The position numbers and the translations under genes were made by a program. This document shows, piece by piece, positions 39,870 to 59,376 of a stretch of 64,000 nt of DNA; within the stretch, counting starts at the first letter, position 1; each line of letters begins with the position of its first letter. Source of the DNA: a virus. The stretch lies in the IMG/VR virus record IMGVR_UViG_3300044710_000077, positions 9,112 through 73,111 of that record; one strand, 5' to 3'. The notes under the pieces were generated by a model. It was not told the origin of the DNA. It did not search any database and saw nothing but the letters and a program-made list of their open reading frames with translations.

Positions 39870-40754
39870 TCAGTGCAGCAGCGCCCGCTGGCGGATTTCC
39901 GCCGCCTGGTCGGGCGCGAATTCTTCTAGCGTCTTGTCGCCCTTGCTGGCGTTACAGGGCAAACAAGCCGGAACGATGTTCCCGACCTCGTTCTTGCCCT
40001 TCCGCGACAGCGGCGTCAAATGTTCCATCGTCAGCCTTGTCTCGGCCCCGCAGTACGCGCAGGAATGCTCGAATTCCTTGAGCAGCGCCAGCCAGTCGGC
40101 GCGCGTGAATTCGCCTTCCATTTCCAGCGACCGGACGATTACGCCGTCCTTGTAGGTCTCTGCCTTCACCCGCGCCGCCTTGAGGCGCCAGCGGTCGCGC
40201 AGCACGGCGCGGACGTGCGGCTTTTGATTGTGCTGCCGTTCCCATTCCTTGTAGGCGGCCGTGCGGCGACGGGCGCTCATGCGTGCATTCACAGTCACTG
40301 AATTTGCACGCGCGTATTTTTTAGCGCGCTTCGCCACTTTGGCCCTATTGCACTCGACGCAATAAGAACCGATGCCGTGCGCGCGGCGCTTATCCGGCGC
40401 AAAACAGGAAAAATCCTTCACTTCCTTGCAGGACGAACAGCGTTTCATGCCTTCCGGCAATGCTACGGCCGCGAGTTTTGCTGCCGTCTCGGCGCGCTTT
40501 TTGGCCGCGTAACGCTTGGCGGTAGCGACGGCTTTGTCGGGGTTTTTGGCTCGCCACGCCGCTGCATTTTTTCTAGTCCGCTCGCGAAGCCCCGCTGGAT
40601 TTGCAGCCTTAGCCCGTCTGTGCTTTTCGGCATGGCACGCCTTGCAATAGGGGTCGTACCCGTCAGCGCGTTTGACGGCCGGATAGAAATGCTCGGCCGC
40701 GAGTTTCGACTCGCGACATTTAGCGCATTTCTTGAGGCCGTCAGCGTCAATCAT
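39870..40754 (-). CDS. HNH endonuclease with two zinc-finger repeats
   Basis: KKCAKC..CKAC, KRCSSC..CVEC; CAYCG..TMEHLTPL..G.N..GNIVPACLPCNASKG. Confidence 0.92.
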   Translation of the reverse strand: MIDADGLKKCAKCRESKLAAEHFYPAVKRADGYDPYCKACHAEKHRRAKAANPAGLRERTRKNAAAWRAKNPDKAVATAKRYAAKKRAETAAKLAAVALPEGMKRCSSCKEVKDFSCFAPDKRRAHGIGSYCVECNRAKVAKRAKKYARANSVTVNARMSARRRTAAYKEWERQHNQKPHVRAVLRDRWRLKAARVKAETYKDGVIVRSLEMEGEFTRADWLALLKEFEHSCAYCGAETRLTMEHLTPLSRKGKNEVGNIVPACLPCNASKGDKTLEEFAPDQAAEIRQRALLH

Positions 40755-40773
40755 GGCGCACCTTGATAGCACG

Positions 40774-42174
40774 TTATCCAGCGGTTTCAATAACGAGGCT
40801 CCGCTTGAACAACGCGTTGGAAGCCGTTGGAATTATGGAGGTAGTACTCGTAATGTCCGTCGGGACCGCGTAATCTCCGATCCAAGTCCAAGACAGCGAC
40901 GTGACCTGGGACAAGCGGTCCAAGGGCGGGCGCAGGATTTGCGCCACGTTGTTCACCAGGAACACGTCGGCAATCGGATTGAGTCCTTCGCGCTGCAACC
41001 AGGATTCGAGGCCCTCGAAATTGCCTTGGATGATGGACTCGGCACCCATGATGATCGGGCGGCGGGTGCGCACGACGTTCGCCGACGGGCTGGTCGCGGT
41101 GCTGGCTTGGCCGTAGGTCGTGCCGTTGTACTGCTGCAACGCCGGCTGGACATAGGCTTCCGTCGTCGGGATATAGGTCACGCCCAGCAGCCGAATCACG
41201 TCGCCGTCGCGGAATTCGCCGCTGTCGTTGCGGCCGGCGAACAGGACTTTGAAATCCTGGTCGGCCCAAAGCTGGCGCATGGACGTATTGTCCAGGATGC
41301 AGTGGTAGGTCCCGTCCTCCATGGGCGGCACGCCGTTGTCGCGCAGGTAGGCGACTGCATCTTCGACCAGCCCCATGGTCAGCACGTCCGACCCGGACAG
41401 TTGCGCCGTGGTCAGTTTGCCGAACGGGCGCAGGATTTTCGGGGCGTTCAGCGCGATAAGCGCGTCGCCATTGACCGGGGTCGTGGCGGCACTGAACGTC
41501 AGCGTGCCGCTGGTGCCGTCCGGGCGCGAGCTATGGTTCGTCACGTCGGCGGTCGCTGCCGTCACGGTCAGCGTCTGGTTGACGCCGGCCGACGTGATCG
41601 CGGTTTCGACGACCGTAATCGGGTTGCCGCTGGAAATGCCGGTCGGCACGCCATTGACCAGGACCGTCGTAAAGCCGCTGATATCGTCGACATGGCAGGT
41701 CGTGGTGCTGCCGGCGCCCAGGTCGGTGCGCACGCGGCTGTTGCCGCCCAGATACGCAAAGAACAGCTTCATGCGCGCAATCCGCTCCATGGACTGCGCC
41801 GCCTGCACGCCGTTGTTGCGGCTGTTGCCGATAAGCTGGTCGGCGATGCCGGCCAGTTCCTGAATCATGTTGGTGTCAACGGTGTCGGCGTATTCCTGCA
41901 TGGTGAAGGAATACTGCTCGACGCTGAACGTCGACGGCGACAGGCCATTGTCCAGGCCGGTGTTATTGGCCGGATTGAGCGGCTCAGTGACCGGGGTTTT
42001 GCGCGACTTGCGCGTCCGGGTCAGGGTTTCACCAATGCGCGCGGGGACGGTTTCCTCGGCGGCGGCCCGGCGATAGGCCAGGACCGAGTCGAGCCCTTCC
42101 TCCAATTCGCGTTCCAAAAAGCCCTGCTGCAAGATGGCGGCAAGTGCGGCGGGGAAATTGGTGAACGAGCCCAT
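40774..42174 (-). CDS. Major capsid protein
   Basis: 466 aa, strongly biased codons, GGAG RBS, IGETLTRTR, N.G.QAAQS, AVAYLRDNGVP..DG.YHC; downstream of scaffold. Confidence 0.9.
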   Translation of the reverse strand: MGSFTNFPAALAAILQQGFLERELEEGLDSVLAYRRAAAEETVPARIGETLTRTRKSRKTPVTEPLNPANNTGLDNGLSPSTFSVEQYSFTMQEYADTVDTNMIQELAGIADQLIGNSRNNGVQAAQSMERIARMKLFFAYLGGNSRVRTDLGAGSTTTCHVDDISGFTTVLVNGVPTGISSGNPITVVETAITSAGVNQTLTVTAATADVTNHSSRPDGTSGTLTFSAATTPVNGDALIALNAPKILRPFGKLTTAQLSGSDVLTMGLVEDAVAYLRDNGVPPMEDGTYHCILDNTSMRQLWADQDFKVLFAGRNDSGEFRDGDVIRLLGVTYIPTTEAYVQPALQQYNGTTYGQASTATSPSANVVRTRRPIIMGAESIIQGNFEGLESWLQREGLNPIADVFLVNNVAQILRPPLDRLSQVTSLSWTWIGDYAVPTDITSTTSIIPTASNALFKRSLVIETAG

Positions 42175-42409
42175 GGCGATATCGCTCCGTGCAAACGGGG
42201 GTCCGGTGTAGGGTCAGCGGACGCCTGCGCGCCTGGCGCGGCGTGTATATTTCGGGCTTTGGTATTTCCGGGGCGGCGTCTAGCCGGCCTGACCGTCGGG
42301 CGGGGTCCCTGCCCCTATATGCTGGGCTTGTTGTCGGGGGCGCCCGTCCCCGCGCTTTCCGTGTTGGCCGGGCCAGCCGTTGCCAACGCGGTCTGCGTTC
42401 CTGCTGCCG

Positions 42410-42616
42410 TTATGTCGCAGAATTACTCCGAACGCAAGCGGTAGGGGCTATGCCACCATGCGGTTCATATGGATGGTGGAGCAAAAACAGGAATAAACGG
42501 TCATTTTTGACGGTCGGCGGCCATTCGGCGACACAGCCCGCGTCAACGCCGCGCGCGATATCGACCGGCGACAATTCAGCCAAATCCCGTTCCCTGATTC
42601 GCAGTTCTTTTCGCAC
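42410..42616 (-). CDS. Hypothetical protein
   Basis: 68 aa ORF in the scaffold-capsid insert; weak support. Confidence 0.3.
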   Translation of the reverse strand: MRKELRIRERDLAELSPVDIARGVDAGCVAEWPPTVKNDRLFLFLLHHPYEPHGGIAPTACVRSNSAT

Positions 42617-42637
42617 GTCGGGGCAATTGAACCTCAG

Positions 42638-43216
42638 TTAACCGGCATATCGGCGGATGTAGTATTCGCCCCAGCATCCTTGCCAATCGACGCGGCGCCC
42701 GTACTTGCGTTTCAGTTTGGTCATTTCGGGTAGGTTGTCGCCGCGGAGATCGTCCCAAATGTCATGCCACGCGGCGCCATAACGGATGCCTTTCGGTGGC
42801 TGCCATTCAAAGGCATCGGCCTGGATAATCTCAACGCGTTTATCCGCTTGATAGTGAGGTCCAGCCAAAGCGATTACATCCGCGTCTTTCTCGATGACAG
42901 TCACGCGCCGAACGCTAACGCGTTTCAATACCGCGGCAAGCACCATGCCGATACCGAGTCCGTTGAGCAGAACATGATCCTTGGCATTACAGACGATGGA
43001 ATAGTGATCGCGCATTTCATCCGGTGTATCGCTCATGATGATGCCGCGTTTGGCGTGTCGTAGCCGGGTATAGATGCCGGGAGAGATAACGCCGCGTCCG
43101 TGTTGCATGGCGCTGATAGTGCCCATCATGGCATCATGCTTCGTGACCTCGAAACGCTCGATGGCCCAATCGCCGCACTTGCCTTCCGGGACCGTTACTT
43201 GCTCAATGATGCTCAT
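42638..43216 (-). CDS. Class I SAM-dependent methyltransferase (spermidine-synthase-like fold)
   Basis: IMSDTPDE, VLLNGLGIG, VTVIEKD, IIQADAF, AWHDIWD. Confidence 0.85.
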   Translation of the reverse strand: MSIIEQVTVPEGKCGDWAIERFEVTKHDAMMGTISAMQHGRGVISPGIYTRLRHAKRGIIMSDTPDEMRDHYSIVCNAKDHVLLNGLGIGMVLAAVLKRVSVRRVTVIEKDADVIALAGPHYQADKRVEIIQADAFEWQPPKGIRYGAAWHDIWDDLRGDNLPEMTKLKRKYGRRVDWQGCWGEYYIRRYAG

Positions 43217-43812
43217 GATTTTCCCGACATTGCAGAAGCCAGCCGGCGCCGCGGCGACGCATTCCTGGTTTTGGCGTCCTTGGGCAGCACCATAGCCGCA
43301 CTCGACCCCGGCGCGATATCAACGCGCAGTATAGCCAAATTCAATTTGGAACGCACGCCGGCCGGGAATGACGGGCTGGTCTGCTGGCTTTTGTGCATGG
43401 CCACGATGACGGCGAACACGACTGGCGCGCGCGGGTCGCGGCCGGCGTGCAGCCGGGCATACCAGTCCACAACGTCGTTCGCGCCCTTGTTCTGGTTGCA
43501 GCGGTAGCAGCATACGACGCGATTGAGGCCGTCGAAATCGCCCAGCGTCCAGCCCTTTGCCCGGGGGAAAGCGTGATCGCGCGTCGCGGCCGTCCGTTCG
43601 GCTGTCGTGTTCCACATGGGCGGCGCGGTCATCGGCGCGCCGCAATAGCCGCACGGCTTGCCGACGAATTCCGCCAGCGGCGTGGCTTTCTTTTCGGCTT
43701 GGCGCGTGGTGATGATTCGCCCGCTACGTTCCGGCGGCCGCGGCGGTTGCAGATCGCCTAGGTTGGCCCACTTTTTGCCGTTGGGATTATTGAATTGTGG
43801 GGCCCAGACCAT
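43213..43812 (-). CDS. HNH endonuclease
   Basis: CGYCG...TRDHAFPRAKG...N...CCYRCNQNKG. Confidence 0.85.
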   Translation of the reverse strand: MVWAPQFNNPNGKKWANLGDLQPPRPPERSGRIITTRQAEKKATPLAEFVGKPCGYCGAPMTAPPMWNTTAERTAATRDHAFPRAKGWTLGDFDGLNRVVCCYRCNQNKGANDVVDWYARLHAGRDPRAPVVFAVIVAMHKSQQTSPSFPAGVRSKLNLAILRVDIAPGSSAAMVLPKDAKTRNASPRRRLASAMSGKS

Positions 43813-43819
43813 GAAAAGT

Positions 43820-43946
43820 GACCAGCGCCATTCGGGGTTTACGCTTCAAGCCGCGTGTATTGACCATTGGGGCGGCTCGTCTTGGTCAGTCCGCGAACCC
43901 CTCCCGGATATCGCCCCGGGCCAAGGCATTTTGGCTGGCGCTGGTC
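43820..43946 (-). ncRNA. Multi-branch structured RNA element
   Basis: 11-bp closing stem 43820-43830/43936-43946 enclosing GCCAA/UUGGC, CCCGG/CCGGG, GGGGUU/AACCCC and UGACCA/UGGUCA helices. Confidence 0.5.
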
Positions 43947-43983
43947 GACACCCATTGGCATCGCCGTAGGGTGTTCGTGAATT

Positions 43984-44084
43984 TGGTGGGCCCGGCCGTG
44001 GTTTCCCCCGGCGACGCCTGCCGACATTTGACCCGTTCGATTCGCTCGCGCTTCATTCGACGGATGCCGGCCCGCTACAGGCCC
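43984..44084 (-). ncRNA. tRNA-like RNA (non-canonical, 101 nt, encoded CCA)
   Basis: Starts GGGCCUG-UAG, ends CGGGCCC-A-CCA (7-bp acceptor stem); T-arm-like GCCG..GGAAA..CGGC; long central hairpin instead of a normal anticodon arm. Confidence 0.55.
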
Positions 44085-44188
44085 TTAGAATTCCCCCGGG
44101 GCACCGCCAAGCGTCCCGGGGGTCGAATTCGGAAGGACATTCCGATTGATCGCGTAGGCCGCCGATAATGCAGCGCCGCGCGGAAATG

Positions 44189-44923
44189 TCAACGGAGGCT
44201 GGCGAGCGCAGCCTTCTTGGCATCGCCATAGGCGGCTTTGCCAGCGCGATCTTTCGGCAGGGTGCGCACGTCGGCGCCGGCCGGCGGGGTAGCACCTGGC
44301 GCCGGCTGGGGCGGCGCTGGACTGCCGCTGGTACGGACGGCGACGGTTTCGCCGGCACGTGCTGGCGCTGCCGCCTGGAAATATTCCGGCTTTTTCGTCT
44401 TGAACGCCGTCACGGCGGCCTCGACGCCGGTCACGTTGCCGTCGTCGTCAATGGCGACGCCGGCGCGGTCGATAAGCAGCAGCAGGTCCGGGTCGCGCAA
44501 GCCGGCCGCCACAGCCGCCGCCTTCAATTCAGCGTCAACGGCACGTTGCTTGATTTTGTTCGCCCGAGTTTCGCCTTCTGTGCGCGCGGTCTGTTCGCGA
44601 CGGTCGGCGTCGGCGCGCAACGTCGCCAGTTCGTTTTGCAGCGCAGCCGCCCGCGATTCGGCTTCCCGCTTGCCGACACGGCGAACAGCGGCCTCGGCCC
44701 GCACTTCAGCCAAGATGCCTTCAAGCTGCTGGGCGCGTTCGGTGTCCGACTGCCCAGGGGCGCGCGCTGGTGTGGGCTGCAGTTCCGCGTCGGCGGCCGG
44801 TGGCCGGTTATTGTTGCCACCACCCGGCTGGTCCGCCGGCGGGTCATCGAAGCAAATGAACGGATTGGCAGGCACGCGGAAACCGCGCAGACCCCGCGCG
44901 GCAAGGATATCTGCAAGCAACAT
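44189..44923 (-). CDS. Capsid scaffolding protein
   Basis: VRAEAAVRRV coiled coil, AELKAAAVAAGLRDPD, IDDDGNVTGVEAAV...KKPEYF. Confidence 0.85.
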   Translation of the reverse strand: MLLADILAARGLRGFRVPANPFICFDDPPADQPGGGNNNRPPAADAELQPTPARAPGQSDTERAQQLEGILAEVRAEAAVRRVGKREAESRAAALQNELATLRADADRREQTARTEGETRANKIKQRAVDAELKAAAVAAGLRDPDLLLLIDRAGVAIDDDGNVTGVEAAVTAFKTKKPEYFQAAAPARAGETVAVRTSGSPAPPQPAPGATPPAGADVRTLPKDRAGKAAYGDAKKAALASLR

Positions 44924-44949
44924 GGTTTATTCCCTCGGTTGGCAGACTT

Positions 44950-45669
44950 TCAAGCGGCAGCGGCCAGGGCTGCGGTGATATTCGCGCCCGTGCCGGTCAG
45001 TGTTCCGATTCTGGTTTTGATGTAGCCCACAGGCATGGACGATGTGTAATTCGTCAGCCCCAGCGCCGTGATGCTCGTCCCGTTCAGCTTTTCGCCGTCG
45101 GCGCCGACGGCCACGGTCAGCGTTTCGGTGGCGCCCCCGGATTTCGACGTCGTCAGGATGGTGGTCGACCCGACAGGCGGCGACCCTTCCTCGGTATTTA
45201 TCGCGAACCCCGGCAGGCTGGGCCATAGGATTGTGACCACGGCTGCGGCGGACGTAGCTCGGAAGCCCAGGACGGCCAGATTCTGGTCGGCGTTCACGCC
45301 AGCCGCCAAGGCCGCCGCAATCGCCGTTGTGCTTTCGCCGCCCGACGTGGTTAGCGTCACGGTTTCGCTGCCGTTCGGCAGTAGTGGGTTGGTAAAAATC
45401 AGGTTCAGCATGTCGCCGTCGGTTTCCGAGCCGCCGACGGTGACGGTGTATGTGTTCAGCGGATTGAACTGATTCGTGGCCCAGATATCGAGCGCCAGGG
45501 TCGATATTGACCCGGACAGTTCGATTGACGCCGCCTTGGCGAATTTGACCGGAACCCACAGCCCCTCATAGGGCAGATTGGCCGCTACGATGCTGTCGGC
45601 CAGCAGGGCTGCAATGGCGAACGGGGACGCGAATGGGCCGGCGGTGTATTGGACAAGCTGGTCGACCAT
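44950..45669 (-). CDS. Structural protein carrying one copy of the shared virion module
   Basis: YTVTVGGSETDGDMLNLIFTNP...GESTTAIAAALAAGVN. Confidence 0.65.
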   Translation of the reverse strand: MVDQLVQYTAGPFASPFAIAALLADSIVAANLPYEGLWVPVKFAKAASIELSGSISTLALDIWATNQFNPLNTYTVTVGGSETDGDMLNLIFTNPLLPNGSETVTLTTSGGESTTAIAAALAAGVNADQNLAVLGFRATSAAAVVTILWPSLPGFAINTEEGSPPVGSTTILTTSKSGGATETLTVAVGADGEKLNGTSITALGLTNYTSSMPVGYIKTRIGTLTGTGANITAALAAAA

Positions 45670-45707
45670 TGGCGCGTTGCCCCTTTAACGATTTCCCAAC
45701 GGGCTTA

Positions 45708-45929
45708 TTACGCCTGTGTCTCGATAATCGCAAGGACTTGGTCCTGGGCGATCATTTCGCCCAGCTTGACGTGAAGGCGGACGACGCCGGCCGCGGGCGC
45801 GGTAACGGGCCAGAGCATTTTCATGCACTCGATTTCGGCGATTGTTTCGTCGCGGGCGACCGTGGCGCCGTCGTCGACGTGCACGACCGAGACGGTGCCG
45901 GGGATGGCGGCGCGGATTTCGATGGTCAA
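45708..45929 (-). CDS. Stand-alone biotin/lipoyl attachment domain protein
   Basis: IRAAIPGTV..V.V..G..V...ETIAEIECMKM...VTAPAAGVV....V..G..I. Confidence 0.85.
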   Translation of the reverse strand: MTIEIRAAIPGTVSVVHVDDGATVARDETIAEIECMKMLWPVTAPAAGVVRLHVKLGEMIAQDQVLAIIETQA

Positions 45930-46089
45930 GCGCCAGTCGCCACGCCGATTTTTCGGCCGTTGGCGTCGGTGATGTAGGTGTGGAATCCGTTCGTCCCGTT
46001 GCCCACGTCAACGGTCTGGTATGGGCCTGGGGCGGCTTTTCCTGTCATTGTCGTTGGCTCCATCCTTGTAGCCGGTTGGCGTCTTGCGA

Positions 46090-46491
46090 TCAAGCCTTAA
46101 AGCGTACAGGTCCGCATTTTTTGCCCCGCAGCGCCTGATAACCCCGAATTTCCTTGAAAACGAAAGCCAATGCGCCGGCGAATCGCTGGTCGACCATGCC
46201 GACATTGCCAGGAAGTGGCGCGTCAGGAAAATCCGGCGCCGCATGGTGCCGATAATCGTACCCGATGGCCGGCAATAGCCGGTTATCCTCGCGGATTTGA
46301 ATTAGGCGCCCTTGCTGTTCGGCGTGATTGCGCGACCACGATTCCGCAACGCACCGCTTGCAGCGATTCCCGTGGCCGTCGACCTTGTTGGCCTTGTTCC
46401 GATGAAATTGCGACAGCGGCTTGGTTTTTCCGCAACCGCTGCATTTTTTGGTCGGCTCGGCCGCTATATGCGGCTTAGGGGATTCGCCCAT
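46090..46491 (-). CDS. Zinc-finger protein related to HNH N-termini, no HNH core
   Basis: KKCSGCGKTKPLSQF...DG...RCKRC. Confidence 0.55.
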   Translation of the reverse strand: MGESPKPHIAAEPTKKCSGCGKTKPLSQFHRNKANKVDGHGNRCKRCVAESWSRNHAEQQGRLIQIREDNRLLPAIGYDYRHHAAPDFPDAPLPGNVGMVDQRFAGALAFVFKEIRGYQALRGKKCGPVRFKA

Positions 46492-48217: not shown

Positions 48218-49966
48218 TTAGGCATTCACCCTAACCGGCGCCCCGACGTGCATGGGCGCCGCGTGGCCGGCAGCACCGCCGGGCTGGTTGGCGGGCGCAT
48301 TGTCGCCAACGATATCGGGCTCGTCAATGGAGAGCGGCGCGGGAACCGGAGGCGTCGGCTCGTCCGGCGACGTCGGGCTGTCGTCGACGCGTTCCGCCTG
48401 TTCGGCGCTTTCGGTTTCCAGCATGGCAAGGTCCAGGTTCAGCGAAATATAGGCGCGCGCTTGGTCCATGGTTATCAGTTGCTCGTCCTCTGTCGGCTGC
48501 GTCGGCGGCACTTCCGGTGTGCCGGGCGTGGCGGGGCTGTTTTCGCCCGCCGGCTTGCCGGGTTTTGCAGGCTGACCCGGCGCGGTCTTTTTCAGCGGGT
48601 CCAGCATAAGCTGGAACGCCTGCGCCAGCGCCAGAACCTCGTCCGGCGTCGGCTGCGCCAGCCGCGGCCACTGCATGGTCAGCGCGCCGGCGTCCTTGTC
48701 CGATAGCGTCTTGGTGGCGGCTGCCAGCTTGCGCAGCAGCGGCAGCGCGCCGTCGTCGCCATACTGGCCGCGCAGGTCCATAATCAGGTCGTCGCTGTCC
48801 TGGTCCAGATATTCCATGGCGCGCCCAGACAGCGGCGCCTTCATCTTGTCGGGGTCCTTGCGGCTGGCCGATATTTGCTCAAGGGCGAAATTGCGCAAGC
48901 GGTCGATATATTCCAGGGCCGCTTTGCTGCCCTGCCCGTTCATTTCCAATAGTTTGGCATCGCCCGGGCTATAGGTTTGCTCGTCCTCCTTGTAGCCCCC
49001 GCGCATAGCCAAGTGTGTGACCGGGCTGCGGGTAAAGCCGTCTGCGTTCAGCACTTGGCCAATCGTGACCAATTGCGGCGCCGAATTATACCGGATGCCG
49101 CGCCCGGTCTGCGACAGCGTGTAATCCAGTTCGATACTGTTGGGGATAGCGTCGGCGAACGTGCACGCGCCGTCCGGCGCACAGCCGCCGGACAGGTTGA
49201 CGAACCAATGGCCGGGGACAAACCCGAATCCGTGGTCGTGGGACATTTCGGGCCACGCGGTTAATTCTTTCGGCCCCTTGCCGTCGACGTTCGTAAAGCC
49301 GTCGACCGGATTCCAGTCGTCCTTTTTCACCGGCTTGTAGGTGATTTCCTTGTCGGGCAAATAATCGCGGATAAACCAATATATCGCCGACGCCTCAACG
49401 TCGGACGCGCTGGCGCCGAGCGCGATGAAATCCGCCCCCGTGCACGTGTAATTAATCCGCAACTGGGCTAGATCGCCGAACTGATCAAATGACGGCTTGC
49501 AATATTGCGCCCGCCATATCTGGAACGCGGCCTGCTGGTTTTCCCCGGCCTTGCGCACGCGGAACGTGACCGCCACAGACCCCACCGACCCGTTCAGCAC
49601 CGCGTTAGACATGGTCTGCACGAAACGCGCCTGGCGCAGCACCTTGGCCAGCGGGGCCAGCACCGTCGACGTGGCTGCCTCGTCCAGTTTTAATTTCGGC
49701 CTATGCCGGCCGGCGAACAGCTTGCGCGCCGACCAGCGCGCGACCATCCGGGGCAGGCGGAACTGCGCTGACGGCCGGCGCTCGGCCAGCGGAATAATCC
49801 GCGCGTTCGGGCCGCCGTTGGGGTCGGTTTCGTCGTAGAACGCATATTTCAGGTGGTCGTAGAATGTGCCGTCTAGCAGGCGGCAGCACAGGTCCAGATT
49901 GACATAACGCGGGTCTTTCTTGGCCCAGTGCGGGAACGTGACCATGTCGCCGATTTTTTTGAACAT
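48218..49966 (-). CDS. Portal protein
   Basis: 582 aa between terL and scaffold; LLDGTFYDHL, GSVGSVA, HGFGFVP, GDAKLLEM.G, SGRAME; acidic P-rich tail. Confidence 0.88.
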   Translation of the reverse strand: MFKKIGDMVTFPHWAKKDPRYVNLDLCCRLLDGTFYDHLKYAFYDETDPNGGPNARIIPLAERRPSAQFRLPRMVARWSARKLFAGRHRPKLKLDEAATSTVLAPLAKVLRQARFVQTMSNAVLNGSVGSVAVTFRVRKAGENQQAAFQIWRAQYCKPSFDQFGDLAQLRINYTCTGADFIALGASASDVEASAIYWFIRDYLPDKEITYKPVKKDDWNPVDGFTNVDGKGPKELTAWPEMSHDHGFGFVPGHWFVNLSGGCAPDGACTFADAIPNSIELDYTLSQTGRGIRYNSAPQLVTIGQVLNADGFTRSPVTHLAMRGGYKEDEQTYSPGDAKLLEMNGQGSKAALEYIDRLRNFALEQISASRKDPDKMKAPLSGRAMEYLDQDSDDLIMDLRGQYGDDGALPLLRKLAAATKTLSDKDAGALTMQWPRLAQPTPDEVLALAQAFQLMLDPLKKTAPGQPAKPGKPAGENSPATPGTPEVPPTQPTEDEQLITMDQARAYISLNLDLAMLETESAEQAERVDDSPTSPDEPTPPVPAPLSIDEPDIVGDNAPANQPGGAAGHAAPMHVGAPVRVNA

Positions 49967-53695: not shown

Positions 53696-55405
53696 TCACC
53701 TTTGGAATATCGGCAGCGACGCCGGGCTGCCGGTGTCGTCCTGCATTGTCCGGGGCGCTTTCAGCAGCCGCGCATACGCCCCGCTGGTCGCATCGCCGCG
53801 GTCGTTCGGCTTCGCGGGAAACTGACATAGCTCGTCGAGATACGGCATAATCCAGGCGCCTTCCTCAGGCGTTTCACCTTCGACGATAATCACGTTACCA
53901 ATTTCCGCCTGCGATGCAAACGGAGTAGCGCGCGTCGGCTTGTCGCCAGTCTCTGGCGTGAAATGCACGTCGTAGCCGGCCAAGGCCGTCCCTAGGCCGC
54001 GCTTTTGCACTTTTCCGGCTTGGCCCGGGTCCTGCGGCAACGATACCTCGTAGCGCCCGAAATGCCGCGCGCACCATATCCGGTCGGCCGCGCATATGGT
54101 CAAAATCCACGGCTCGGCATTTTCAATGCGCTCGGCCCGACAATTGGCAATATAGATTTTGCCGTCCGTCTTGGGCCACGCCGAGCCCAGCAGCACGCCA
54201 GCGGTGCGCGCTGAATTCGATTGGCTGAATATTTCCTCGGTATCGGCCAAATCGAAATGGCGCACCCAGCGCAGACCTGACGGCGGCACGCGCACCCGCT
54301 TTAGGAACCATGGCAGCTTGAACATGCCGCCGCCCCGCGGCGTCGGTTCCTGCTGATGTTGTCCGCTGACTGCGTATGGGGTCATCTCCTTTTCGAGCGC
54401 GTCGACTACGGCGGGCGGGAAGCGTTCGGGGAATAGCAATTCGCCTTCGACTTGGCGCGGGTCGGAAAATATCGGGGTAATGCACCGCTTGGCGGCGATG
54501 AAGCGCATGGGCAGCACAAGCGCAACGTGCGGGATGCCTAATTCTTCCCAAAGCCCAGACGGGTCCTGTTTATGGACCCGCTGCATAATTAGGCCGATTG
54601 CCGACCGCACAGGGTCGTTAATCGACATGGGGACACGCTCGCGCATGATAAACCGCGCATGCTCGCGGTCGGCATCCGAATTTGCCTGCACGACGGACAC
54701 GGGATCGTCAATTGTCAGCACGTCACCACGGCCGCCGGTCAGGCGGTCGAACGGCACGCCTTCGCGTGTACCCTTGGCCGCGTTCTCAAAGGACGTTTCG
54801 CCGAATCGGGTCAGCACGACGCGATTGTGGAATTCGCCTTCGGCATCCTTGCCCCATAGCCGCTGATACCAGGCCGACAGAATCAGGTCGCGCGTCTTGC
54901 GGGTATCGCGGCGCACCCAGTTTTCGGAATACGACGTCGACAAAAACCGGTGGTGCGCAAGGTTCGCTGGCCCCCACTCCCACGCATTCCACAAAACGGA
55001 TACGCAGATACTTTTTGAAAACCCCGGAGGCACGTTCATCCGCAGCCGATTCGGCGCGCCCATGGCCATAAACGTGCCGTGGGTAATTGCCTCCAAGTGC
55101 TGGCATATTGCGCGGGTAACCCAGCCTTCGACGAATTGCGTCCGGGGCTCAAGGACGTGCCAGGCTTCGCGCACAAAGCCTATCAGCGTGCGGCAACGCT
55201 CACGAATTGCCGCTGCGTTCTTATCGAGGTCAAACCGCTCGCGCTGCTCAGCCCGGCGCTGCTGTTCCGCCTGGACCTTGGCCAGCAGGCGCCGCAGGTC
55301 CCCCGTCGTCCGCAGGCCCATGCTGTGAAGCTGGGCCAGGATCACTTTGCGCTGCGTCGGGGACAATGGGGCTGACAGTTCGGGCAAGGGCGGCAAGTCC
55401 GTCAT
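53696..55405 (-). CDS. terL: Terminase large subunit
   Basis: NVPPGFSKS (Walker A), LTGGRGD.LTIDDP (Walker B), IMQRVH, QQEP, HFDLA, GDKPTRA, FP...ND..DA.SGA. Confidence 0.96.
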   Translation of the reverse strand: MTDLPPLPELSAPLSPTQRKVILAQLHSMGLRTTGDLRRLLAKVQAEQQRRAEQRERFDLDKNAAAIRERCRTLIGFVREAWHVLEPRTQFVEGWVTRAICQHLEAITHGTFMAMGAPNRLRMNVPPGFSKSICVSVLWNAWEWGPANLAHHRFLSTSYSENWVRRDTRKTRDLILSAWYQRLWGKDAEGEFHNRVVLTRFGETSFENAAKGTREGVPFDRLTGGRGDVLTIDDPVSVVQANSDADREHARFIMRERVPMSINDPVRSAIGLIMQRVHKQDPSGLWEELGIPHVALVLPMRFIAAKRCITPIFSDPRQVEGELLFPERFPPAVVDALEKEMTPYAVSGQHQQEPTPRGGGMFKLPWFLKRVRVPPSGLRWVRHFDLADTEEIFSQSNSARTAGVLLGSAWPKTDGKIYIANCRAERIENAEPWILTICAADRIWCARHFGRYEVSLPQDPGQAGKVQKRGLGTALAGYDVHFTPETGDKPTRATPFASQAEIGNVIIVEGETPEEGAWIMPYLDELCQFPAKPNDRGDATSGAYARLLKAPRTMQDDTGSPASLPIFQR

Positions 55406-58062: not shown

Positions 58063-59376
58063 CTAAGCGCCTGCTGGGGTAACACCGGACGGCCCCCTAA
58101 GCGTACCAGCGACGCTTTCTATGGCAATGCGGGCCGCTTTGACCTGGGCCATTGTGTGCCCGGTCGCCTCCAAGGTGGCCACGCCACCCGTGAACGCTTG
58201 CCACCGCTCGACCGCCATATCGACATAGGCCGGATCGATCTCGATGGCATGGCATATGCGGCCCGTCATCTGGGCCGCGATAATCGTCGTACCAGACCCG
58301 ACGAATGGATCGTAAACCGCATCCCCAACCCGGGAATTATTCTCCATCGGGCGCCGCATGCACTCGACGGGCTTTTGCGTCGAATGCCCCGTTTCGCTTT
58401 TCTGCGGCTTGTCGATTTCCCAAAGGGTATTTTGCTTGCGGTCGCCCTGCCAGTTGCCAGTCGCGCCTTGGCGCACGGCGTACCAGCAGGGTTCGTGCTT
58501 CACGTGGTAATCGCCCCGGCCAATTGGGAAATGCGACTTTGCCCAGATAATTTGCATCCGAATGGCAAACCCGGCCCGTTCGATGCAATGATAAAACTCA
58601 ACACTGTTGGAGCCCGCCGGGCTCCAACAGTAAATTACGTTGCCTGGGAAATTCACAAAAGCCGCCGTCCAGTCCGAGCGATCATCGTTGGTCACCCTAG
58701 CGACCGCCCTATCATCCTCAATCCTAATTATACGCTCTTTCCGCCAACCGGCGTCGTATTCGATGCCGTAGGGCGGATCGGTGACCATCAAAACGGGCAC
58801 CGCCCCGGTTAGAACCCGCTCGACGTCCGCCGCGGCGGTCGCGTCGCCACATAGCAGCCGATGCTGACCAAGCCGCCATAGATCGCCGAACCTAGTTACA
58901 GGCGCCGCGGGCGGCTCTGGGGTTTCCTCCGGGTCCGTGTGCTGCTCGCCGAACCCGGCTACGAACTGGCGTAGCTCTACGTCTGGAAATCCGATGACGC
59001 GCAATGGAAAATCCAGCTTGGCGAGGTCGCCTAATTCGACCTTCAAAAGTTCTGTGTTCCACCCCGAATTTAGGGGCAATTGGTTATCTGCAATCCGGTA
59101 ACCTCTCTTGCGCTCGTCGGACCAGCCGCGCGCAACGATGACTGGCAGCACAACGATTCCCAATTCGACGGCAGCCCGAATACGCGCGTGGCCACAGATT
59201 ATTTCGCCGGTTTCGTCGATAAGCGGTGGCACGGTGAAGCCAAATTCAATTATGCTGTCCTTAATTTGGGAAATTTGCTCGTCGGAATGCGTCCGCGTAT
59301 TCTGCTGATAATTGCGCAGTTTTTTGACGGGCCATCGCTCGATTTCGCCGGCCTCCCATGGATTGCGCTCGGCCAT
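58063..59376 (-). CDS. ParB-like N-terminal domain fused to DNA methyltransferase
   Basis: NTRTHS..QI..I..SI.EFGF..P, ICGHAR, YRIADN; LLCGDAT, VTDPPYG, HSTQKPV, YDPFVGSGTT. Confidence 0.93.
   Translation of the reverse strand: MAERNPWEAGEIERWPVKKLRNYQQNTRTHSDEQISQIKDSIIEFGFTVPPLIDETGEIICGHARIRAAVELGIVVLPVIVARGWSDERKRGYRIADNQLPLNSGWNTELLKVELGDLAKLDFPLRVIGFPDVELRQFVAGFGEQHTDPEETPEPPAAPVTRFGDLWRLGQHRLLCGDATAAADVERVLTGAVPVLMVTDPPYGIEYDAGWRKERIIRIEDDRAVARVTNDDRSDWTAAFVNFPGNVIYCWSPAGSNSVEFYHCIERAGFAIRMQIIWAKSHFPIGRGDYHVKHEPCWYAVRQGATGNWQGDRKQNTLWEIDKPQKSETGHSTQKPVECMRRPMENNSRVGDAVYDPFVGSGTTIIAAQMTGRICHAIEIDPAYVDMAVERWQAFTGGVATLEATGHTMAQVKAARIAIESVAGTLRGPSGVTPAGA

What the first reader, a model, noticed from the sequence alone, without database searches (positions are those of the whole stretch)
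43820..44130. ~370-nt non-coding block of nested helices around the tRNA-like element
Seen: besides the tRNA-like unit, the scaffold-HNH spacer holds a strong hairpin (GAAUUC..CCCCGGG/CCCGGGG..GAAUUC, 44088-44130), an ACACCC/GGGUGU hairpin, and a multi-branch domain closed by a perfect 11-bp stem (43820-43830/43936-43946). That domain ends 8 nt before the HNH ATG, where no clear RBS is visible. A spacer this long is rare in a genome of overlapping genes. Inference: a multi-domain ncRNA or a cis-regulator of the HNH/methyltransferase genes. A nuclease-associated RNA or prohead-associated RNA is possible but speculative.
Basis: partly seen in the sequence, partly recalled or inferred. Interest (0 to 1): 0.7.

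Follow-up and report, generated by a model that had tools for sequence, protein, structure and literature searches.

The report
Untranslated leader of a mobile HNH gene
The 376-base gap is real non-coding DNA lying in front of a nuclease gene that has jumped into a phage's head-gene cluster, but its predicted RNA folds are only modestly better than chance, so it is most likely an ordinary control region.

Summary
The window is a 73-kb soil phage record. On the minus strand the order is scaffold (44189-44923), a 376-nt gap (43813-44188), an HNH gene (43213-43812), a methyltransferase, a 463-nt gap, then the major capsid gene.

The statistics are modest:
- The whole gap folds at z -1.7 (minus strand) and -2.2 (plus strand).
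- The 131-nt closing domain folds at z -3.65, but ranks only 39th of 2661 same-size windows in the genome.
- Perfect 11-bp inverted repeats occur 10 times in the window, against 5.7 expected.

The "tRNA-like" unit is at chance level. No Rfam family matches, and no ORF in the gap has support.

None of 28 related capsid loci carries the HNH gene or any similar spacer. Their scaffold-capsid gaps are short, or hold other insertions such as IS200/605 elements. The gap is therefore the 5' flank of a lineage-specific mobile HNH cassette.

My best reading (about 0.5) is a promoter plus a structured leader that keeps HNH translation low, as in T4 homing-endonuclease genes. No homologous spacer could be fetched, so structural conservation is untested.

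Side finding: relatives share a covarying three-hairpin motif in the capsid-gene leader.

The parts
44189..44923 (-). Head scaffolding protein gene, upstream neighbour of the spacer
   Evidence: PF06810 Phage_scaffold, E 1.4e-15. phrog_194 head scaffolding, E 7.9e-15.
44165..44192 (-). Sigma-70-like promoter match: TTGACA, 16 nt, CATTAT. The -35 hexamer overlaps the scaffold stop codon. This is a consensus match only.
   Evidence: 10 of 12 positions match. It is one of 3 sites at 10 of 12 or better on both strands of the 64-kb window, against 1.48 +/- 1.33 in shuffles, and the only one on the minus strand.
44088..44130 (-). Strong hairpin 58 nt after the scaffold stop. It has no U-tract, so it is not a canonical intrinsic terminator.
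   Evidence: -25.2 kcal/mol, z -2.54, 3 of 200 shuffles as good. The scan calls no terminator-like site on the minus strand. Relatives have a strong hairpin in the same position after their scaffold gene.
43984..44084 (-). Long irregular helix closed by a 7-bp stem followed by ACCA.
   Evidence: z -1.78 on the minus strand, 0.03 on the plus strand. ARAGORN default finds nothing. The stem-plus-NCCA pattern is at chance level.
43948..43974 (-). ACACCC/GGGUGU hairpin
   Evidence: -13.2 kcal/mol, z -2.64, 2 of 200 shuffles as good.
43820..43946 (-). Four-way-junction domain closed by a perfect 11-bp stem. Its 3' strand ends 8 nt before the HNH ATG.
   Evidence: Inverted repeat I24. z -3.65, 0 of 200 shuffles. 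Rank 39 of 2661 windows. A single-sequence covariance model finds no second copy in 322 kb of held DNA.
43213..43812 (-). HNH nuclease gene (199 aa). It is lineage-specific and reads as a homing-endonuclease-type insertion.
   Evidence: PHROG HNH families, best E 1.1e-8. Pfam HNH_5 scores 22.4 bits, below the 27.5 cut-off. 8 homologues were found; one shares the MVWAPQ start and the others begin at about the same aligned position. The gene is absent from 28 related capsid loci and from 6 relatives' full records.
42627..43238 (-). Methyltransferase cassette nested in the 3' end of the HNH gene. The methyltransferase ORF is 42638-43216.
   Evidence: phrog_15480, E 1.3e-42. 87.7% nucleotide identity over 612 nt to L035:1989-2600, which lies in an unrelated context.
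42576..42623 (-). Displaced original C-terminal tail of the HNH protein (PRRAKRTANQGTGFG plus stop)
   Evidence: Matches residues 185-203 of homologue P0002, 74% over 19 aa. The tail is conserved across the family.
42175..42637 (-). Second non-coding gap, ending at the major capsid gene. Its last ~150 nt are the likely ancestral capsid-gene leader. It carries vestiges of the CAGG-loop hairpins at 42315-42302 and 42240-42228.
   Evidence: Motif hit at a similar distance from the capsid ATG as in relatives: 141 nt, against 92-153 nt. The full covariance model R2 does not reach significance here; the best hit is 7.4 bits, E 0.21.
40774..42174 (-). Major capsid protein gene
   Evidence: phrog_1357 major head protein, E 4.8e-23. 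53-88% amino-acid identity to 28 related loci.

Best explanation
The 376-nt block is the non-coding 5' flank of a lineage-specific HNH nuclease gene. That gene looks like a free-standing homing endonuclease and has landed in the scaffold-to-capsid intergenic region. In this phage group that region repeatedly takes up foreign DNA.

SHOWN
- The block is non-coding.
- The HNH gene starts where the ORF says.
- The gene and its flank are absent from every relative that could be fetched.
- A methyltransferase cassette was later inserted into the 3' end of the HNH gene.

INFERRED
The block works in cis as the expression control region of the HNH gene.
- A sigma-70-like promoter at the scaffold stop would start a leader of roughly 345 nt.
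- The hairpin at 44130-44088 takes the place of the post-scaffold hairpin or terminator seen in relatives.
- The 11-bp helix ends 8 nt before an AUG with almost no Shine-Dalgarno pairing, so a ribosome would have to melt it to load.
- The expected effect is to keep translation of a potentially harmful nuclease low. RNA structures do this for I-TevI, segB and mobE in T-even phages.
For: CODING STATUS
- The codon-position GC signal collapses across the gap.
- None of the 4 ORFs overlapping this gap is in a 15-billion-protein collection. The 3 that lie wholly inside it match no PHROG or Pfam family.

START CODON
- Homologue P0003 shares the MVWAPQ start, and the other homologues begin at about the same aligned position. 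None has an N-terminal extension into the gap.

INSERTION
- 0 of 28 related capsid loci have the HNH gene, the methyltransferase or any spacer similarity.
- 0 of 6 relatives' full records have the HNH gene, one of them 100% complete.
- In the 23 relatives where both genes are seen, the scaffold-capsid gap is 22-396 nt, or else holds other inserts: a 669-nt gap with an ORF and a 2406-nt gap with IS200/IS605 genes.
- A fifth of the incomplete loci, L008, has a TnpB fragment just upstream of its capsid gene.

REGULATORY LAYOUT
- The promoter match is 10 of 12 and is the only such site on the coding strand of the window.
- Relatives have a strong hairpin just after their scaffold gene.
- The closing domain folds at z -3.65, 0 of 200 shuffles.
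- HNH Shine-Dalgarno pairing is the 5th weakest of 31 genes.

PRECEDENT
[quoted passage not shown] It also describes a hairpin immediately upstream of the binding site for seg43(25).
Against: - No homologous spacer could be obtained, so there is no covariation or conservation evidence for any helix.
- The fold statistics are modest. The whole spacer is at z -1.72. The best domain ranks 39th of 2661 windows. Perfect 11-bp inverted repeats are not rarer than chance.
- Both strands fold equally well.
- The helix covers positions -8 to -18, where no Shine-Dalgarno sequence exists. 'Sequestration' is therefore looser here than in the T4 cases.
- No internal promoter that would bypass the structure was found.
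- The promoter match is a consensus hit in a phage whose host is unknown.
- No RNA data are available.
- The nuclease has not been shown to be active or mobile.
Confidence: 0.5

Rival explanations
1. The block is neutral filler. It would be leftover intergenic DNA and insertion scars around a mobile cassette. It looks folded only because 63% GC sequence folds well and the helices were picked after the fact.
For: - The whole spacer folds at z -1.72 on the minus strand and -2.22 on the plus strand.
- The best domain ranks only 39th of 2661 windows, and many coding windows fold as well.
- Perfect 11-bp inverted repeats number 10, against 5.7 +/- 2.5 expected.
- Stability is equal on both strands.
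- No family match and no homologue were found.
Against: - The best domain beats 200 of 200 shuffles.
- That domain sits exactly against the start of an SD-poor gene.
- A near-consensus promoter match sits exactly at the 5' edge of the gap, in the right orientation.
- Phage genomes this compact seldom keep 376 nt with no role.
Confidence: 0.3
2. The block encodes a stand-alone structured RNA. It would be either a small RNA ending at the 44130-44088 hairpin, or a longer RNA that works together with the HNH protein (guide-like or omega-RNA-like).
For: - A promoter match sits at the 5' end.
- A structured RNA directly upstream of, and co-oriented with, a small HNH-only protein is the layout reported for IscB/IshB OMEGA loci (PMC11610941, passages read).
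- IS200/605 elements use the same intergenic site in two relatives.
Against: - No match to the HEARO/omega RNA or any other Rfam family at E up to 10.
- No RRXRR/PLMP-type domain in any of the 9 family members.
- No IscB or Cas9 chain among the PDB matches at E up to 10.
- The only Cas9-type signal is a 16-bit HNH-motif match against a cut-off of 375 bits.
- No U-tract terminator is present.
- No IS200-type transposase lies next to the cassette in the window.
Confidence: 0.07
3. The gap holds an unannotated small protein gene. Candidates are the minus-strand ORFs 43886-44056 (56 aa) and 43839-44027 (62 aa), and the plus-strand ORF 43818-44168 (116 aa).
For: - Open frames exist.
- There is a weak rise in third-position GC (0.75, against 0.53-0.65 at the other two positions) in the frame of the 56-aa ORF over 43940-44060.
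Against: - None of the three sequences is in the 15-billion-protein collection.
- None matches a PHROG or Pfam family at E up to 0.1.
- No Shine-Dalgarno sequence precedes either minus-strand ATG (sequence).
- The plus-strand ORF has flat codon-position GC (0.62/0.59/0.69).
Confidence: 0.05
4. The block contains a decayed tRNA gene or a tRNA-like processing element.
For: - There is a relaxed ARAGORN hit on the plus strand at 43966-44055, with a TTCGATT-type loop.
- A 7-bp stem plus ACCA lies on the minus strand at 44084-43984, next to a GAAA-capped arm (sequence).
- Free-standing nuclease genes sit among tRNA genes in some phages (recalled, not from a call).
Against: - ARAGORN with default settings finds nothing.
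- The relaxed threshold gives 107 hits in 64 kb, and the next stricter one gives none in the spacer.
- No tRNA or tmRNA covariance-model match at E up to 10.
- The stem-plus-NCCA pattern occurs 57 times, against 40.7 +/- 7.2 in shuffles.
- The plus-strand fold of the region has z 0.03.
Confidence: 0.03

Closest known systems
Regulated homing-endonuclease genes of T-even phages: I-TevI/II/III, segB, Aeh1 mobE and seg43(25) (review PMC2988022, passages read)
   Same: - A nuclease gene sits as an optional insert between conserved phage genes.
- A stable RNA structure lies directly in front of its start.
- Expression is expected to be kept low.
- T4 segD also sits next to the major capsid gene.
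   Different: - In the T4 cases a clear Shine-Dalgarno sequence lies inside a simple hairpin, and a late promoter inside the structure releases it.
- Here there is no Shine-Dalgarno sequence.
- The structure is a 127-nt four-way junction within a leader of about 345 nt.
- No internal promoter was found.
- Neither homing nor regulation has been tested.
OMEGA systems: IscB/IshB with omega RNA (Rfam HEARO); commentary PMC11610941, passages read
   Same: - A structured non-coding region of a few hundred nt lies directly upstream of, and co-oriented with, an HNH protein of about 180-200 aa.
- Relatives carry IS200/605 elements at the same site.
   Different: - No HEARO match.
- No RRXRR/PLMP domain.
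- No similarity to solved IscB or Cas9 chains.
- No IS200 transposase or element ends around the cassette.
- The protein belongs to a family of small phage HNH proteins: 846 representatives at E up to 0.001, most of them 90-200 aa.
The conserved capsid-gene leader motif of this phage group (found here; alignments A3/A4, model R2)
   Same: It lies in the same scaffold-to-capsid intergenic region and on the same strand. It too is a set of short GC-rich hairpins.
   Different: - That motif has comparative support: 9 loci hit, and 10 of 19 pairs have compensatory changes.
- It lies about 90-150 nt before the capsid ATG.
- The finding's block has no match to it; the best score in 43813-44188 is 1.4 bits.
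- The window keeps only vestiges of it, in the other gap.

Membership tests
tRNA / tRNA-like element | Cloverleaf found by a tRNA finder at its normal threshold | tested here: not met
   ARAGORN default finds 0 genes in 64 kb. The spacer hit appears only at -ps80, where the window gives 107 hits. There is none in the spacer at -ps85, which gives 25 hits.
tRNA / tRNA-like element | Match to the Rfam tRNA or tmRNA covariance models | tested here: not met
   Neither model is among the 5 matches at E up to 10 in 43600-44400. Nothing reaches gathering score in the window.
tRNA / tRNA-like element | Acceptor-type 7-bp stem followed by NCCA, beyond chance | tested here: not met
   The pattern is present at 44084-43984, but it is one of 57 such sites, against 40.7 +/- 7.2 in shuffles.
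OMEGA (IscB/IshB) nuclease with omega RNA | RNA matches the HEARO/omega RNA family | tested here: not met
   No HEARO match at E up to 10 or at gathering score.
OMEGA (IscB/IshB) nuclease with omega RNA | Protein carries the N-terminal RRXRR/PLMP-type domain and is related to IscB/Cas9 | tested here: not met
   Pfam scan of all 9 family members at E up to 1 gives only HNH families and zinc ribbons. PDB profile search at E up to 10 gives 4 weak matches, none to IscB or Cas9. A fold comparison was not possible because the model has pLDDT 44.
OMEGA (IscB/IshB) nuclease with omega RNA | Sits in an IS200/605-type element (Y1 transposase or element ends) | tested here: not met
   Of the 10 neighbouring proteins scanned, none is a transposase. 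IS200/605 genes are seen only in relatives L010 and L008.
phi29-type prohead RNA | Match to the Rfam prohead RNA family | tested here: not met
   No match at gathering score or at E up to 10.
Group I intron carrying an HNH ORF | Match to the group I intron core model | tested here: not met
   No Intron_gpI match at E up to 10 in either gap.
Group I intron carrying an HNH ORF | Interrupts a host gene whose exons flank it | tested here: not met
   Scaffold and capsid are complete, separate ORFs here and in the relatives.
Intrinsic terminator (hairpin 44130-44088) | GC-rich stem followed by a U-tract | tested here: not met
   No terminator-like site is called on the minus strand. The stem is followed by UAAGGGCC.
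Homing-endonuclease gene with a structure-controlled start (T4 type) | Nuclease gene is an optional insert between conserved genes | tested here: met
   0 of 28 related loci and 0 of 6 full records carry it.
Homing-endonuclease gene with a structure-controlled start (T4 type) | Stable RNA structure that covers the ribosome binding site | tested here: inconclusive
   The 11-bp helix covers -8 to -18. No Shine-Dalgarno sequence is present there. No conservation data exist.
Homing-endonuclease gene with a structure-controlled start (T4 type) | Promoter inside or after the structure that frees the start at the right time | tested here: not met
   The only promoter-like site on the minus strand in 42000-45000 is upstream of the whole leader. 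The scan covers sigma-70-type promoters only.
Homing-endonuclease gene with a structure-controlled start (T4 type) | Site-specific cleavage of the insert-free allele, and homing | not testable with these tools
   Needs a cleavage assay and phage crosses.

The most novel reading that the evidence does not exclude
The promoter at the scaffold stop drives a discrete structured RNA of about 340 nt that acts together with the 199-aa HNH protein. It would give the protein target specificity or switch it on. That would make the locus a phage-borne, HNH-only, RNA-assisted nuclease, comparable in layout to IshB/omega-RNA systems but unrelated in sequence. The evidence does not exclude this, because no homologous upstream regions and no RNA data could be examined.
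Probability: 0.04. Interest if true: 0.8.

Novelty: new member of a known kind. Interest (0 to 1): 0.22.

Why it matters
If the best reading holds, this is one more example of a mobile nuclease gene bringing its own leader into an essential phage gene cluster. It would come from an uncultured soil phage group, outside the T-even phages where the mechanism was worked out. That is useful for annotation but not surprising.

The locus is more instructive as a whole. The scaffold-to-capsid gap of this phage group is a hotspot that has taken up an HNH gene, a methyltransferase nested inside it, IS200/605 elements and an extra ORF in different lineages. Its ancestral content seems to be a small covarying three-hairpin motif that is not in Rfam. 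That motif is the better candidate for a new regulatory RNA.

Tried and rejected
SEARCHES FOR A HOMOLOGOUS SPACER (ALL EMPTY)
- blastn of 40700-46000 against 50,697 phage records gave only capsid-gene hits.
- blastn of both gaps against 28 capsid-related loci and 4 methyltransferase loci gave nothing.
- The scaffold protein as query in viral contigs found no relative.
- The HNH protein alone found two matches of 15 and 19 aa only.
- The HNH alignment A1 found none in viral contigs or metagenome contigs, and one 23-aa match in genome contigs.
- Earlier-findings look-ups returned nothing.

COVARIANCE MODEL OF THE DOMAIN
- A single-sequence model of the 131-nt domain (R1) found only itself in 322,459 bases. 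The next best hit was L005, E 0.066, in an unrelated place on the other strand.

SEQUENCING RUNS
- No RNA holder was listed.
- Four soil DNA runs were laid as low-depth contigs. Pieces cover 43332-43873 and 44055-44537, nothing lies on 43873-44039, and the differences inside the spacer were not among the rows shown. Nothing can be concluded from this.

IDEAS DROPPED
- Scaffold 3'-end duplication: there is a 16-nt direct repeat (43955-43970 against 44217-44232, 15 of 16). Translated comparison with nine scaffold proteins gave nothing convincing, so I treat it as chance.
- MITE-like element bounded by the 11-bp inverted repeat: there is no target duplication in the flanks (sequence), no second copy in the genome and none in the held loci.
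- Packaging-type HNH next to terminase: the terminase large subunit is about 10 kb away, at 53696-55405. Relatives, including one complete genome, lack the gene.

OTHER
- The structure prediction of the HNH protein from the 9-row alignment gave mean pLDDT 44. No fold search was run on it.

Full report
SETTING

The window is part of a 73,111-nt virus record. The nearest cultured relatives by DNA are Ralstonia phages. They match only within the capsid gene, at 67% identity. The head genes run on the minus strand in this order:
- portal, 48218-49966;
- scaffold, 44189-44923 (PF06810, E 1.4e-15);
- a 376-nt gap, 43813-44188;
- a 199-aa HNH protein, 43213-43812;
- a 192-aa methyltransferase, 42638-43216;
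- a 463-nt gap, 42175-42637;
- major capsid protein, 40774-42174;
- a second HNH/endonuclease VII gene, 39870-40790.

Any RNA of interest would therefore be read from the minus strand.

IS THE OBSERVATION THERE?

- The hairpin at 44088-44130 folds at -25.2 kcal/mol (z -2.54, 3 of 200 shuffles as good).
- The ACACCC/GGGUGU hairpin at 43974-43948 folds at -13.2 kcal/mol (z -2.64, 2 of 200).
- The perfect 11-bp inverted repeat at 43820-43830 / 43936-43946 closes a four-way junction (z -3.65 minus strand, -3.79 plus strand, 0 of 200 each).
- The stem ends 8 nt before the HNH ATG. Pairing of the upstream 20 nt with a generic anti-Shine-Dalgarno tail is -2.2 kcal/mol, the 5th weakest of 31 genes (median -5.7).

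The gap is non-coding as far as can be told.
- The codon-position GC signal fades across it.
- None of the 4 ORFs overlapping it is in the 15-billion-protein collection.
- The 3 ORFs that lie wholly inside it match no PHROG or Pfam family.

IS IT MORE THAN CHANCE?

Only modestly.
- The whole spacer folds at z -1.72 on the minus strand and -2.22 on the plus strand.
- I folded 2661 windows of 131 nt on the minus strand and regressed energy on GC content. The best domain ranks 39th. It was placed in exact register, whereas the other windows sat on a 24-nt grid.
- Perfect inverted repeats of 11 bp or more with a loop of up to 150 nt number 10 in the window, against 5.7 +/- 2.5 in dinucleotide shuffles.
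- Both strands fold about equally well, so the energy does not say which strand matters.

THE tRNA-LIKE UNIT

- ARAGORN at default settings finds nothing in 64 kb.
- A hit at 43966-44055 on the plus strand appears only at a relaxed threshold that yields 107 hits in the window. At the next stricter setting (25 hits) the spacer has none.
- I noticed a 7-bp stem followed by ACCA on the minus strand (44084-43984). Such sites number 57 in the window, against 40.7 +/- 7.2 in shuffles.
- Rfam gives nothing at gathering score for the window.
- At E up to 10 on 43600-44400, Rfam gives only five matches, all far below threshold. The best is 20.4 bits against a cut-off of 42. None of them is tRNA, tmRNA, HEARO, prohead RNA or a group I intron.

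WHAT THE SURROUNDINGS SAY

The capsid protein retrieved 9 viral and 19 metagenomic loci at 53-88% identity.
- None of the 28 has the HNH gene, the methyltransferase, or any blastn similarity to either gap.
- Six relatives' full records also lack the HNH gene, one of them 100% complete. Four further handles were not held.

In the 23 loci where both scaffold and capsid are seen, the gap between them varies widely:
- 22-53 nt in the more distant relatives;
- 164-396 nt in closer ones;
- 669 nt with an extra ORF in L006/L022;
- 2406 nt with an IS200 Y1 transposase and IS605 OrfB in L010.

L008 has a TnpB fragment just upstream of its capsid gene. The site is therefore an insertion hotspot, and the HNH gene is one such insert.

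The HNH protein has 8 homologues by word search.
- One (P0003) shares the MVWAPQ start, and the others begin at about the same aligned position. This fixes the ATG at 43812 and rules out a decayed N-terminal extension in the gap.
- A full profile search finds 846 representatives at E up to 0.001, but only 6 at E up to 1e-30. Most hits share only the roughly 100-aa HNH core of small phage HNH proteins.

A NESTED SECOND INSERT

- Family members end in a conserved tail (...RTANQG...). In the window that tail (PRRAKRTANQGTGFG, then stop) lies at 42623-42576, after the methyltransferase.
- The stretch 43238-42627 is 87.7% identical at the DNA level to L035:1989-2600, where the methyltransferase sits in an unrelated context.
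- The methyltransferase is thus a later cassette inside the 3' end of the HNH gene. It is not an original partner of the leader.

WHAT THE ANCESTRAL SPACER HOLDS

- Relatives have a strong hairpin shortly after the scaffold stop. In L005 it is followed by UUUUCGUU. The window's 44130-44088 hairpin holds the same position but lacks a U-tract.
- Closer to the capsid gene, relatives share short hairpins with CAGG-type loops.
- Six of these sequences give a three-helix consensus.
- A covariance model built from them finds all the trained loci. It also finds L011/L012, which were not used for training, at E 7.9e-4.
- On the model-fitted alignment of 8 distinct rows, 88.6% of cells pair, against 77.0 +/- 2.0 in shuffles (0 of 500 as high). 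Ten of 19 pairs show changes on both sides (1 of 500). Sliding the partners drops pairing to 34-54%.
- This alignment is small and was fitted to the model, so the support is moderate. The motif is not in Rfam 15.
- In the window, only vestiges remain in the other gap (42315-42302 and 42240-42228). The best model hit there is 7.4 bits, E 0.21.
- The finding's block scores 1.4 bits against the same model.

MECHANISM

A TTGACA-16-CATTAT match (10 of 12) overlaps the scaffold stop. It is one of only three such sites on both strands of the window (1.48 +/- 1.33 expected), and the only one on the coding strand.

I read the block as a promoter plus a leader of about 345 nt for the HNH gene. Its last helix sits against an SD-poor start and should slow ribosome loading.

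The T4 literature describes this logic (PMC2988022, passages read). Stable structures sequester the ribosome binding sites of I-TevI/II/III, segB and Aeh1 mobE, and a very stable hairpin sits just upstream of the site for seg43(25).

The differences matter:
- no Shine-Dalgarno sequence lies inside the helix here;
- no bypass promoter was found;
- nothing has been tested.

I put this reading at about 0.5. Neutral filler gets 0.3, and the remainder is shared among a stand-alone RNA, a small ORF and a tRNA remnant.

THE BOLDEST READING

A small HNH-only protein with a structured RNA just upstream recalls IshB/omega-RNA loci (PMC11610941, passages read). Every testable membership feature failed:
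- no HEARO match;
- no RRXRR/PLMP domain in 9 of 9 family members;
- no IscB or Cas9 chain among the PDB matches;
- no transposase beside the cassette.

The predicted structure was too poor to compare folds (pLDDT 44). The layout resemblance remains, and I give it about 0.04.

VERDICT

The anatomy is real but the statistical claim is weak. The tRNA-like unit is not supported. The block is best filed as the untranslated flank of a mobile HNH gene.

The decisive test could not be run, because the contigs of the HNH homologues were out of reach. That test is whether the helices are kept upstream of those homologues.

Noticed in passing
L009:5869-5948, L010:4828-4905, L018:4907-4977, L005:5875-5948, L004:2040-2113, L034:174-242, L011:684-796; window vestiges at 42315-42302 and 42240-42228: Relatives share a three-helix motif with CAGG-type hairpin loops about 90-150 nt upstream of the major capsid gene. 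It shows compensatory changes (10 of 19 pairs; 88.6% of cells paired against 77% in shuffles). It was also detected in a locus that was not used for training. It is not in Rfam 15. It is a candidate cis-regulatory RNA of the capsid gene.
   Followed up: partly
window 42627-43238 and 42576-42623; L035:1989-2600: The methyltransferase is a separate cassette inserted into the 3' end of the HNH gene. It is 87.7% identical at the DNA level to a copy in an unrelated phage context. The old HNH tail is stranded after it.
   Followed up: yes
L010:2559-4964; L008:1787-2320; L006:5332-6000 (same contig as L022): The scaffold-to-capsid gap is an insertion hotspot in this phage group. L010 holds an IS200 Y1 transposase plus IS605 OrfB (split into two frames). 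L008 holds a TnpB fragment. L006/L022 hold an ORF with a signal-peptide-like start.
   Followed up: partly
window 39870-40790 and 46090-46491: Two more nuclease-type genes lie in the head module. One is an HNH/endonuclease VII gene directly after the capsid gene, with homologues in the same place in L006/L022, L008 and L028. The other is a small zinc-finger endonuclease VII/Lar-like ORF.
   Followed up: no
window 58603-58631 (within 58500-58670): A perfect 13-bp hairpin with a 3-nt loop lies inside the 58063-59376 ORF. The 131-nt window containing it is the most stable in the genome scan (GC-adjusted z -4.16).
   Followed up: no
window 43955-43970 and 44217-44232: A 16-nt direct repeat (15 of 16 identical) links the spacer to the 3' end of the scaffold gene. 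There is no protein-level support for a duplicated gene end, so it is probably chance.
   Followed up: yes
window 43353-43367 and 43436-43450: A 15-nt inverted repeat, 93% complementary with a 12-bp perfect core, lies inside the HNH coding region.
   Followed up: no
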